Shown here: in pieces, positions 46,556 to 48,626 of the stretch | Numbering within the stretch: position 1 is the stretch's first letter | How the letters are laid out: each line of letters starts with the position of its first letter | Assembly: GCF_006345805.1 (NCBI RefSeq) | Contig: NC_043004.1 | Location: 50,902,001 to 50,966,000 of the forward strand | Length of the DNA: 64,000 bases | DNA from: Octopus sinensis | Taxonomy: Eukaryota | Direction: 5' to 3' | Program-made: the position numbers and the translations under genes | The notes under the pieces: model-generated | Seen by the model: the letters and a program-made list of their open reading frames with translations, nothing else | Told to the model about the DNA's origin: nothing | The model's database searches: none

Positions 46556-46952
46556 AATAGTTATCGCCATACTAATATGGCATTCTTATAAAAATAAGAA
46601 TAAAGCTGTCCGCTTATTAGCTCCATGAGGCCATCGCCTTAAGTTAGCTATTTGATACACAAACTGTATCCATATAACCTTCGAACAAGGGAGGTCAGTC
46701 GCTCCACACTACTTGACCGGCAGCTACAGACGCGTTTCGGGGTATTGCCCCTTTTCAATGCAGCGTAGCCAGCCAGTAGGTGTCGCTTCCGACAATCTCT
46801 GTTCGATGGTTTTATTTACCTAGTTTCAGTGGAATACATCCACTTGTTTTCAATAATAGAAATATTAAAATTACTAAGTCTCTCTAAAAGAGAACAGCGG
46901 CAGCGTTCCCGGAAAATAATAGTTATCGCCATACTAATATGGCATTCTTATA
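46556..46952 (-). mobile_element. Inverted 1.1-unit copy of the 362-bp hammerhead repeat (hammerhead at 46723-46764)
   Basis: Reverse complement of the 47099-48452 unit; TTATCGCCAT at 46561 and 46923. Confidence 0.9.
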
Positions 46953-47101
46953 AACACTCACAACGCCCGGTCTGGGAATCGAAACCGCGATCCTACGACC
47001 GCGAGTCCGCTGCCCTAAGCACTGGGCTATTGCGCCTCCACACACACACACAAACACACACACACATACTTACATACATACATACATACATACATACATA
47101 C

Positions 47102-47143
47102 GCTGCATTGAAAAGGGGCAATACCCCGAAACGCGTCTGTAGC
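47102..47143 (+). ncRNA. Type I hammerhead, U3:A8 variant (unit 1; predicted cleavage after 47137)
   Basis: GCTGCA-TTGAAAA-GGGG-CAATA-CCCC-GAAAC-GC-GTC-TGTAGC. Confidence 0.82.
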
Positions 47144-47463
47144 TGCCGGTCAAGTAGTGTGGAGCGACTGACCTCCCTTGTTCGAAGGTTATATGGATAC
47201 AGTTTGTGTATCAAATAGCTAACTTAAGGCGATGGCCTCATGGAGCTAATAAGCGGACAGCTTTATTCTTATTTTTATAAGAATGCCATATTAGTATGGC
47301 GATAACTATTATTTTCCGGGAACGCTGCCGCTGTTCTCTTTTAGAGAGACTTAGTAATTTTAATATTTCTATTATTGAAAACAAGTGGATGTATTCCACT
47401 GAAACTAGGTAAATAAAACCATCGAACAGAGATTGTCGGAAGCGACACCTACTGGCTGGCTAC

Positions 47464-47505
47464 GCTGCATTGAAAAGGGGCAATACCCCGAAACGCGTCT
47501 GTAGC
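47464..47505 (+). ncRNA. Type I hammerhead, U3:A8 variant (unit 2; cleavage after 47499)
   Basis: Identical motif; stem I extends via GGCTGGC/GCCGGTC and CTACT/AGTAG. Confidence 0.85.
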
Positions 47506-47825
47506 TGCCGGTCAAGTAGTGTGGAGCGACTGACCTCCTTTGTTCGAAGGTTATATGGATACAGTTTGTGTATCAAATAGCTAACTTAAGGCGATGGCCT
47601 CATGTAGCTAATAAGCGGACAGCTTTATTCTTATTTTTATAAGAATGCCATATTAGTATGGCGATAACTATTATCTTCCGGGAACGCTGCCGCTGTTCTC
47701 TTTTAGAGAGACTTAGTAATTTTAATATTTCTATTATTGAAAACAAGTGGATGTATTCCACTGAAACTAGGTAAATAAAACCATCGAACAGAGATTGTCG
47801 GAAGCGACACCTACTGGCTGGCTAC

Positions 47826-47867
47826 GCTGCATTGAAAAGGGGCAATACCCCGAAACGCGTCTGTAGC
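47826..47867 (+). ncRNA. Type I hammerhead, U3:A8 variant (unit 3; cleavage after 47861)
   Basis: Identical motif. Confidence 0.85.
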
Positions 47868-48187
47868 TGCCGGTCAAGTAGTGTGGAGCGACTGACCTCC
47901 CTTGTTTGAAGGTTATATGGATACAGTTTGTGTATCAAATAGCTAACTTAAGGCGATGGCCTCATGGAGCTAATAAGCGGACAGCTTTATTCTTATTTTT
48001 ATAAGAATGCCATATTAGTATGGCGATAACTATTATTTTCCGGGAACGCTGCCGCTGTTCTCTTTTAGAGAGACTTAGTAATTTTAATATTTCTATTATT
48101 GAAAACAAGTGGATGTATTCCACTGAAACTAGGTAAATAAAACCATTGAACAGAGATTGTCGGAAGCGACACCTACTGGCTGGCTAC

Positions 48188-48229
48188 GCTGCATTGAAAA
48201 GGGGCAATACCCCGAAACGCGTCTGTAGC
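48188..48229 (+). ncRNA. Type I hammerhead, U3:A8 variant (unit 4; cleavage after 48223)
   Basis: Identical motif. Confidence 0.85.
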
Positions 48230-48626
48230 TGCGGTCAAGTAGTGTGGAGCGACTGACCTCCCTTGTTCGAAGGTTATATGGATACAGTTTGTGTATCAAA
48301 TAGCTAACTTAAGGCGATGGCCTCATGGAGCTAATAAGCGGACAGCTTTATTCTTATTTTTATAAGAATGCCATATTAGTATGGCGATAACTATTATTTT
48401 CCGGGAACGCTGCCGCTGTTCTCTTTTAGAGAGACTTAGTAATTTTAATATTTATATATATATATATATATATATATATATATATATTATATATATATTA
48501 TATATATATATATATATATATATATATATGTACATATGTATGTATGTATGTATGTATGTATGTATGTATGTATGTATGTATGTATGTTTGTATGTAAGTA
48601 TGTGTGTGTGTGTTTGTGTGTGTGTG

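What the first reader, a model, noticed from the sequence alone, without database searches (positions are those of the whole stretch)
46556..48452. Retrozyme-like array of 362-bp units, each carrying a U3:A8-variant hammerhead ribozyme
Seen: about 3.7 nearly identical non-coding units plus one inverted unit. Each folds as a type I hammerhead: stem I GCUGCA/UGUAGC extended past a UAC/U internal loop, stem II GGGG-CAAUA-CCCC, palindromic stem III GAAAC-GC-GUC. The core is UUGAAAA instead of CUGANGA. The rest of the unit is hairpin-rich (GATACA/TGTATC, GCCATA/TATGGC, AGTGGA/TCCACT). Known: C3 and G8 form a tertiary pair that U3:A8 can replace, and animal non-LTR retrozymes are tandem hammerhead repeats that self-cleave (often as dimers) and circularise. 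Inference: this locus yields a 362-nt circular RNA re-integrated by rolling-circle reverse transcription. Searches requiring CUGANGA would miss it, so it may be an undescribed cephalopod family.
Basis: partly seen in the sequence, partly recalled or inferred. Interest (0 to 1): 0.9.

Follow-up and report, generated by a model that had tools for sequence, protein, structure and literature searches.

The report
Ribozyme retroelement targeted by another retrotransposon
A 362-base repeat with over a thousand copies in this genome carries a predicted self-cutting RNA motif and likely spreads by borrowing the enzymes of Penelope-type transposons, and a second, larger transposon is found inserted almost only at one spot inside it.

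Summary
In detail: a 3.8-unit array plus an inverted 401-nt arm, with five U3:A8 type I hammerheads that Rfam misses.

The unit belongs to a genome-wide family (1,032 exact core matches). Older sisters vary the core almost only at N7 and keep stem III palindromic in three spellings.

The insertions have Penelope-like (PLE) anatomy:
- (TA)n targets and 12-14-bp target duplications.
- Two fixed 3' ends 63 nt apart; 77 of 82 two-armed loci carry one of each, none two alike.
- No PLE ORF in cis.

It is best read as a non-autonomous Neptune-type PLE derivative, that is, an animal retrozyme. That class and the U3:A8 core are both published, and this host's autonomous Neptunes share the core. Cleavage, circles and the partner element were not shown; rolling-circle copying is about even odds.

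Unexpected: a young 5.35-kb L1-group LINE sits at one site just upstream of the hammerhead (30 of 30 3' ends, 30 of 30 5' ends, 17-bp duplication). My searches found no report of a LINE that targets a retrozyme.

The parts
46505..46556 (.). left (TA)n target
   Evidence: sequence
46554..46954 (-). inverted arm, 401 nt, ending at the short (S) end, unit position 220 (numbering: window 47455 = 1)
46723..46764 (-). hammerhead in the inverted arm; predicted cut after 46729
46951..47101 (-). 151-nt inverted copy of right-flank DNA 48566-48716 between the arms, joined by 3-4-nt microhomologies
   Evidence: (I6)
47099..48453 (+). tandem arm, about 3.75 units of 362 nt, ending near the long (L) end (unit 276-280; family mode 283)
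47102..47143 (+). hammerhead 1 (stem I extension truncated); predicted cut after 47137
47464..47505 (+). hammerhead 2: stem I, UUGAAAA core, stem II, palindromic stem III; predicted cut after 47499
47826..47867 (+). hammerhead 3; predicted cut after 47861
48188..48229 (+). hammerhead 4; predicted cut after 48223
47675..47737 (+). 63-nt PLE-type 'tail' between the S and L ends (one copy shown)
47438..47454 (+). 17-bp LINE target site (unit 346-362), empty here; also 47800-47816, 48162-48178 (+) and 46774-46790 (-)
48454..48530 (.). right (TA)n target
48566..48716 (+). flank (microsatellite plus head of a dispersed SINE-like repeat), source of the captured inverted piece
   Evidence: the same repeat lies in L138
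12776..13313 (-). separate remnant of an autonomous Neptune-type PLE (GIY-YIG domain 12876-13313) with its own U3:A8 hammerhead at 12776-12815; a comparator, not part of the array

Best explanation
The array is one insertion of a dispersed, non-coding 362-nt repeat family that is likely a non-autonomous Neptune-type Penelope-like element (an animal retrozyme), with a predicted dimer-dependent U3:A8 hammerhead. Shown: family size, anatomy, fixed ends, target duplications, no ORF in cis. Inferred steps: (1) tandem copies are transcribed into a highly self-paired RNA; (2) a PLE RT/GIY-YIG protein supplied in trans nicks AT-rich DNA on both strands about 12 bp apart; (3) each 3'-OH primes cDNA on the same RNA, or on RNA from the same source, one at site S and one at site L; (4) the RT runs through unit boundaries on an uncut multimer or a circle; (5) the two cDNAs join by short microhomology, giving a tandem arm and an inverted arm. 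At this locus the S cDNA first switched onto 151 nt of flank DNA. Long arrays were then partly amplified locally. Separately, a young L1-group LINE inserts at one 17-bp site just 5' of the hammerhead (specificity shown; the benefit it draws is inferred).
For: Family size: 1,032 exact 35-nt core matches and 2,707 exact S-hairpin matches, reversed-pattern controls 0. Ends: 60 of 64 two-armed loci S+L and 17 of 18 further ones (read by eye); none S+S or L+L; 5 have one atypical end. (TA)-rich flank at 127 of 143 S/L ends. Target duplication 12-14 bp in 8 of 8 two-armed loci whose flanks are not plain TA. Inner junctions overlap by 2-10 nt in 39 of 60. Arms disagree at subfamily sites in 5 of 474 comparisons, 147 expected if independent. 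Autonomous Neptune-type families here show (TA)n ends and two end points, and one of them shows the inverted-arm pattern; two families carry UUGAAAA cores. This matches the published two RT start sites, 'tail' and inverted 5'-truncated copy (PMC11167929; PMC8557442). Ribozyme selection: N7 takes A, C, U, G while U3 and A8 stay in nearly all hits; stem III palindromic in 29 of 30 sister loci in three spellings; compensatory pairs between sister families. LINE.
Against: No autonomous PLE with a homologous pLTR was found, so the mobilising partner rests on anatomy alone. No cleavage or RNA-end data exist. Arm 5' ends do not pile up at the cut site (7 of 155 at 41-47, about 3 expected; 18 in a 9-nt window at 82-91, 3.9 expected), so a cut linear monomer is not the main template and the ribozyme could be slow or protein-dependent. 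Covariation rests mostly on one family split: 11 pairs changed on both sides, a count reached by 59 of 500 shuffles. In Xenopus only 1 of 9 predicted retrozyme dimers cleaved (10.64898/2026.07.22.740005).
Confidence: 0.82

Rival explanations
1. One reading: the locus yields a 362-nt monomer circle, and tandem arms are rolling-circle cDNA.
For: 14 rare variants are fixed in all overlapping segments of one locus, 10 of them across both arms (for example L011, L121; L100 has one in 11 of 12 segments). The fold closes into a rod across the unit junction. Circles are shown for coral, mussel and axolotl retrozymes (PMC7229834, passages).
Against: 52 variants are shared by only some units. L175 and L167 share a variant in the terminal units of both arms but not in inner units. 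L161, L005 and L100 show period-2, -3 and -4 patterns, and L162 has four variant units amplified mid-array. These need multimeric templates, local duplication or conversion. No RNA data discriminate.
Confidence: 0.5
2. The units are only the pLTRs of 5'-truncated copies of an autonomous PLE.
For: The anatomy is the same as in autonomous Neptunes, and only a small part of the family was inspected.
Against: No PLE ORF is joined to the unit in 87 family-A loci (unit hits; PLE-protein screens; for 12 best-hit loci only unit hits were examined), 24 further C1 loci, or 60 sister-family rows. Nearby PLE fragments end in their own pLTR and (TA)n. Units run head-to-tail, up to 10 in a row.
Confidence: 0.12
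3. The L1-group LINE is the mobilising partner, or LINE plus unit move together as one composite.
For: Nearly every copy of this LINE is embedded in the unit. At C3:72.50-72.53 Mb all 5 sites of one array are filled.
Against: Only 4 of 54 loci picked by core match carry the LINE. Other units in the same arrays are empty. The five C3 copies share no private variants, and LINE sublineages cross unit subfamilies. Unit insertions have PLE-type ends, not LINE-type ends.
Confidence: 0.08
4. A DNA-level satellite or foldback repeat whose hammerhead is a chance look-alike or a dead relic.
For: Local amplification is visible in long arrays; activity is untested.
Against: Fixed S/L ends, target duplications, N7-centred core variation and the conserved palindrome are not expected of a DNA satellite. 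The descriptor finds 0 hits on reversed control sequence.
Confidence: 0.05

Closest known systems
Animal non-LTR retrozymes (Cervera and de la Pena 2020, PMC7229834; Li, Clavereau and Pollet 2026, 10.64898/2026.07.22.740005)
   Same: Non-coding tandem units of 170-400 nt, each with a type I hammerhead and palindromic short stem III; highly self-paired; proposed non-autonomous PLE derivatives.
   Different: U3:A8 core in a full-size hammerhead. The two fixed ends, inverted arms and (TA)n target are not described in the parts of those papers I read. Expression, cleavage and circles are untested here; no cephalopod case appears in the texts searched.
Neptune-type and Poseidon PLEs (PMC8557442; PMC11167929)
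   Same: Partial tandems, inverted 5'-truncated copy, tail at one end only, AT-rich or (TA)n targets, hammerhead upstream of two RT start sites.
   Different: No ORF; tail 63 nt rather than 30-40 nt; no sequence homology to the three host Neptune-type pLTRs examined.
Schistosoma Cercyon PLE hammerheads with U3-A8 (PMC4209133)
   Same: The same core covariation.
   Different: Those are minimal, mostly single motifs; this one has 6-bp stem I with an internal-loop extension, 4-bp stem II, and lies in tandem.
Target-specific Tx1-clade LINEs that insert into other transposons (Tx1L into Tx1D, Tx1-Mar into Mariner-N4; PMC4494074 passages)
   Same: APE endonuclease, RT and zinc finger; one fixed site inside a non-autonomous element.
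   Different: The target here is a hammerhead-bearing retroelement, and the site lies between two ribozymes. Tx1-clade membership was not tested.

Membership tests
Type I hammerhead ribozyme | Three-way junction with stems I-III and cut after NUH | tested here: met
   stem III is only 2 bp in cis and is completed as a 6-bp palindromic duplex
Type I hammerhead ribozyme | Core CUGANGA/GAAA or the published U3-A8 covariant | tested here: met
   UUGANAA with N7 free; U3-A8 precedent in PMC4209133; Rfam models do not score it
Type I hammerhead ribozyme | Self-cleavage | not testable with these tools
   no raw reads available
Non-LTR retrozyme | At least two consecutive non-coding units with complete hammerheads | tested here: met
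   four consecutive units here; many tandem loci
Non-LTR retrozyme | Dispersed, non-autonomous (no ORF) | tested here: met
   a sample of loci, not the whole family
Non-LTR retrozyme | Expressed as unit-length linear and circular RNA | not testable with these tools
   contigs cannot show strand, ends or circularity
Penelope-like element insertion type | Tail at one end only (two RT start sites) | tested here: met
   77 of 82 two-armed loci S+L, none of the same type
Penelope-like element insertion type | Inverted 5'-truncated copy and AT-rich or microsatellite target | tested here: met
Penelope-like element insertion type | Homology to the pLTR of an autonomous PLE | tested here: inconclusive
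   none to three Neptune-type families; other host families not sampled
Autonomous PLE | RT and GIY-YIG ORF between pLTRs | tested here: not met
   no ORF in cis
Described Repbase or Dfam family | Match to a deposited consensus | not testable with these tools
   these libraries are not held
Target-specific L1-group LINE (the passenger) | APE, RT, zf-RVT, two ORFs | tested here: met
   best solved relative is human L1 ORF2
Target-specific L1-group LINE (the passenger) | Fixed insertion site with target duplication | tested here: met
   30 of 30 3' ends, 30 of 30 5' ends, duplication allele agrees on both sides in 19 of 19; 1 off-target truncated copy among 30
Tx1 clade | RT phylogeny with Tx1L, Keno, Kibi and relatives | not tested
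   no reference sequences on hand; homolog search gave mostly unnamed hits

The most novel reading that the evidence does not exclude
A three-tier parasite system. PLE enzymes spread a retrozyme by priming both target strands at two fixed RNA sites on a circular template. A LINE has specialised on that retrozyme as an R2-like host: it is transcribed from the array, cut out by the hammerheads on either side with about 317 nt of leader and 62 nt of trailer, and uses those target-matching ends to insert precisely and at full length.
Probability: 0.3. Interest if true: 0.82.

Novelty: new variant of a known kind. Interest (0 to 1): 0.66.

Why it matters
How animal retrozymes move has been open; PLEs were proposed from co-occurrence and pLTR similarity. 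Here the insertions themselves carry the PLE signature, including the two-start-site rule measured in vitro for one PLE, now visible as a strict S+L pairing across dozens of loci. That gives a short, defined substrate for testing trans-mobilisation and double priming. The U3:A8 core shows that screens built on CUGANGA undercount such elements. The LINE is a young, sequence-specific retrotransposon whose target is a ribozyme-bearing parasite. If it borrows the flanking hammerheads, it is a new route to R2-like processing and a candidate precise, full-length integrase.

Tried and rejected
Rfam at E<=10 on 7 kb and on two short stretches: no hammerhead.

Expression: no RNA holder listed. Contigs of three guessed-RNA runs and one unlabelled run cover the unit and show the head-to-tail joint, but tandem DNA gives the same joint, so this is not used for or against expression or circles.

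Partner search: three Neptune-type families (window remnant family, a young family with 775-aa ORFs, and the one beside L314) have no pLTR homology to the unit. The RT fragment near L314 looked like a partner but is a separate insertion. The shared sequence upstream of single-arm loci looked like a PLE body but is the LINE.

Statistics not used: the lower substitution rate in the core (0.23% against 0.48%) and the share of arms crossing the cut site (118 of 143), because loci were chosen for an intact core. The palindrome tally is circular because the descriptor required a palindrome; one search is used instead. Many single-unit deletions look like assembly errors and were not read as biology. 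Sense-strand A>G was not clearly above T>C (36 against 28), so there is no editing signal. Hitch-hiking of the LINE at C3 was tested and not supported.

Earlier scan notes: nothing.

The supplement of PMC7229834 was unreadable, one file of PMC4209133 was not searched, and bioRxiv supplements are closed; a cephalopod entry there cannot be excluded.

Full report
OBSERVATION. The array is as described: 47099-48457, period 362, 3.8 copies, 98%, plus a 401-nt inverted arm at 46554-46954. Five copies of the 42-nt hammerhead occur, four on + and one on -. The monomer is far more stable than shuffles (z -8.6 linear; -8.9 as a circle). Rfam finds no hammerhead. Between the arms lies a 151-nt inverted copy of the right flank (I6), and both outer ends meet (TA)n. 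Unit numbering below: window 47455 = 1; predicted cut between 45 and 46.

HOST. G000 is 2.72 Gb. The closest named relative of the LINE described below is from Argonauta hians (63% over the searched region). An octopod host is therefore my inference.

FAMILY. The unit search gave 188 matches among 40 scored of 1,756 candidates; the 150 listed are 95-100% identical. Exact patterns gave 1,032 core matches (all 100 listed read UUGAAAA, although C3, G8 and any N7 were allowed) and 2,707 matches to a hairpin near the short end. Reversed controls gave 0. Older sisters at 68-92% identity exist with the same anatomy.

RIBOZYME SELECTION. Across sisters the core varies at N7 (A, C, U, G); in the descriptor scan U3:A8 hits number 305 against one U3:G8 and one C3:A8. 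Stem III reads ACGCGU, ACUAGU or ACAUGU, palindromic in 29 of 30 rows picked without regard to it. This is what a dimer-active hammerhead needs (PMC4209133, parts 1-2 of 4 read). A structure taken from the window copy alone keeps 88% of cells paired across 14 copies, against 33-46% for slid controls, with 11 pairs changed on both sides. That count is reached by 59 of 500 shuffles and most changes come from one family split, so it is supporting, not decisive. U3:A8 is not new: it is reported for Schistosoma Cercyon PLEs, and two autonomous Neptune-type families here, including the remnant at window 12.8-13.3 kb, have UUGAAAA cores with an ACCGGU palindrome.

INSERTION ANATOMY. I examined 54 loci taken in genome order and 33 best-hit loci (the window's own among them; L007 was dropped as a duplicate of L003). 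Of 64 two-armed loci, 60 have one arm ending at about 220 (S) and the other at about 283 (L); 4 have one atypical end; none has two alike. In 24 further C1 loci lacking an exact core match, 17 of 18 two-armed loci are S+L (read by eye; two L ends at 291-293). 127 of 143 S/L ends run into TA-rich sequence. The 8 two-armed loci with readable flanks all show 12-14-bp duplications. Inner junctions overlap by 2-10 nt in 39 of 60. The two arms disagree at subfamily sites in only 5 of 474 comparisons, against 147 expected. This is the PLE pattern: partial tandems, an inverted 5'-truncated copy and a tail at one end (PMC8557442, passages). In vitro that tail is the stretch between two RT start sites, with both strands cut and extended (PMC11167929, parts 1-2 of 4). 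Host Neptune-type elements show (TA)n ends and two end points.

CIRCLE OR NOT. For a circle: 14 rare variants fixed across a whole locus, 10 of them across both arms. Against a pure monomer circle: 52 partly shared variants, terminal-unit-only variants in both arms (L175, L167), period-2 to -4 patterns and mid-array amplification. Arm 5' ends cluster at 82-91, inside the long closing stem (18 in 9 nt, 3.9 expected), and hardly at the cut site (7 at 41-47). The template is thus an uncut multimer or a circle, about even odds. In the anole PLE, uncut RNA was the dominant substrate and the hammerhead needed protein.

THE PASSENGER. Several single-arm loci shared an upstream sequence. It is a 5,348-bp LINE with APE, RT and zf-RVT domains, closest to L1 ORF2 among solved structures. 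There are 39 exact 3'-end and 35 exact 5'-end matches. Of the first 30 3' ends, 28 run into the unit at position 346 and 2 into another LINE after the same 17 bp. Of the first 30 5' ends, 28 follow unit position 362 (2 of them with a small difference that my pattern scored 'other') and 2 follow another LINE. In the similarity-ranked set, 29 of 30 were on target and one truncated copy ends in (TA)n. 18 of 20 fetched copies are full length. The 17-bp duplication carries the same G or A allele on both sides in 19 of 19. Most copies differ by 0.1-1% from the column majority; sublineages cross unit subfamilies; and the five copies filling all five sites of one array share no private variants. These are independent site-specific insertions. 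The window's four sites are empty. Because the duplication restores the strand that pairs in the extended stem I, the LINE ends up between two intact hammerheads. That it uses them, as R2 uses rDNA co-transcription (PMC4494074, passages), is inference.

KNOWN AND NEW. The class is known: non-LTR retrozymes (PMC7229834, passages) are proposed to be non-autonomous PLE derivatives (10.64898/2026.07.22.740005, parts 1-3 of 5 read; its sample was vertebrates, insects and a coral). LINEs that target other transposons are known (PMC4494074, PMC8869645, passages). Searches for an octopus hammerhead or retrozyme (listings) returned none. A squid genome paper lists 235 Rfam hammerhead hits (PMC6962438, passage), and an octopus repeat annotation lists 31 recently active PLE families without mentioning ribozymes (PMC13282606, passages). 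Searches for a LINE targeting a retrozyme or PLE (listings) returned none. Repbase, Dfam, subscription journals and some supplements could not be checked.

VERDICT. A real feature and a new variant of a known kind. Non-autonomous PLE-mobilised retrozyme 0.82; monomer-circle template 0.5; LINE target specificity about 0.93; LINE borrowing the ribozymes 0.3. Interest 0.66, carried by the strict two-site signature and the site-specific passenger rather than by U3:A8 itself.

Noticed in passing
G000 C3:72.50-72.53 Mb (L259, L360-L362): One two-armed unit array in which all five target sites hold full-length LINE copies; the copies do not form a clade.
   Followed up: yes
window 12776-13313 (-); L061-L090, L127-L130: Large Neptune-type PLE family (17,677 first-look candidates, ORFs to 804 aa) with a U3:A8 hammerhead whose stem II is only 2 bp, (TA)n targets and a tail of about 45 nt.
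   Followed up: partly
L181-L217: Young Neptune-type family with open 775-aa ORFs; its 3' repeat holds, by eye, a hammerhead-like motif with C3:G8, C at position 4 and a palindromic stem III. A possible trans partner by age only.
   Followed up: partly
window 22086-22111 and 50819-50844 (-): Two copies of a minimal C3:G8 hammerhead-like motif from another repeat family (one with C at position 4); 0 expected by chance.
   Followed up: partly
L041, L122: Unit arms that begin exactly at position 346, the LINE target boundary, without this LINE upstream; unexplained.
   Followed up: partly
L176:2460-2609: A 150-nt non-unit insert between the two arms, not found elsewhere in the fetched locus; a second case of template capture at the inner junction.
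   Followed up: partly
window 44640-45400 and 43830-44070: Several diverged copies of a repeat spaced about 220-240 bp apart, with inverted copies nearby (D12, D13, I9-I12).
   Followed up: no
window 51488-51945: 126-bp arms, 98% complementary, 206 nt apart; looks like a miniature inverted-repeat element (I7).
   Followed up: no
window 9949-10950 (-), 30622-31691 (-), 33244-34136 (+), 62440-63929 (+): ORF fragments that by recall resemble a LINE ORF1, Tc1/mariner transposases and a Helitron; labels not tested.
   Followed up: no
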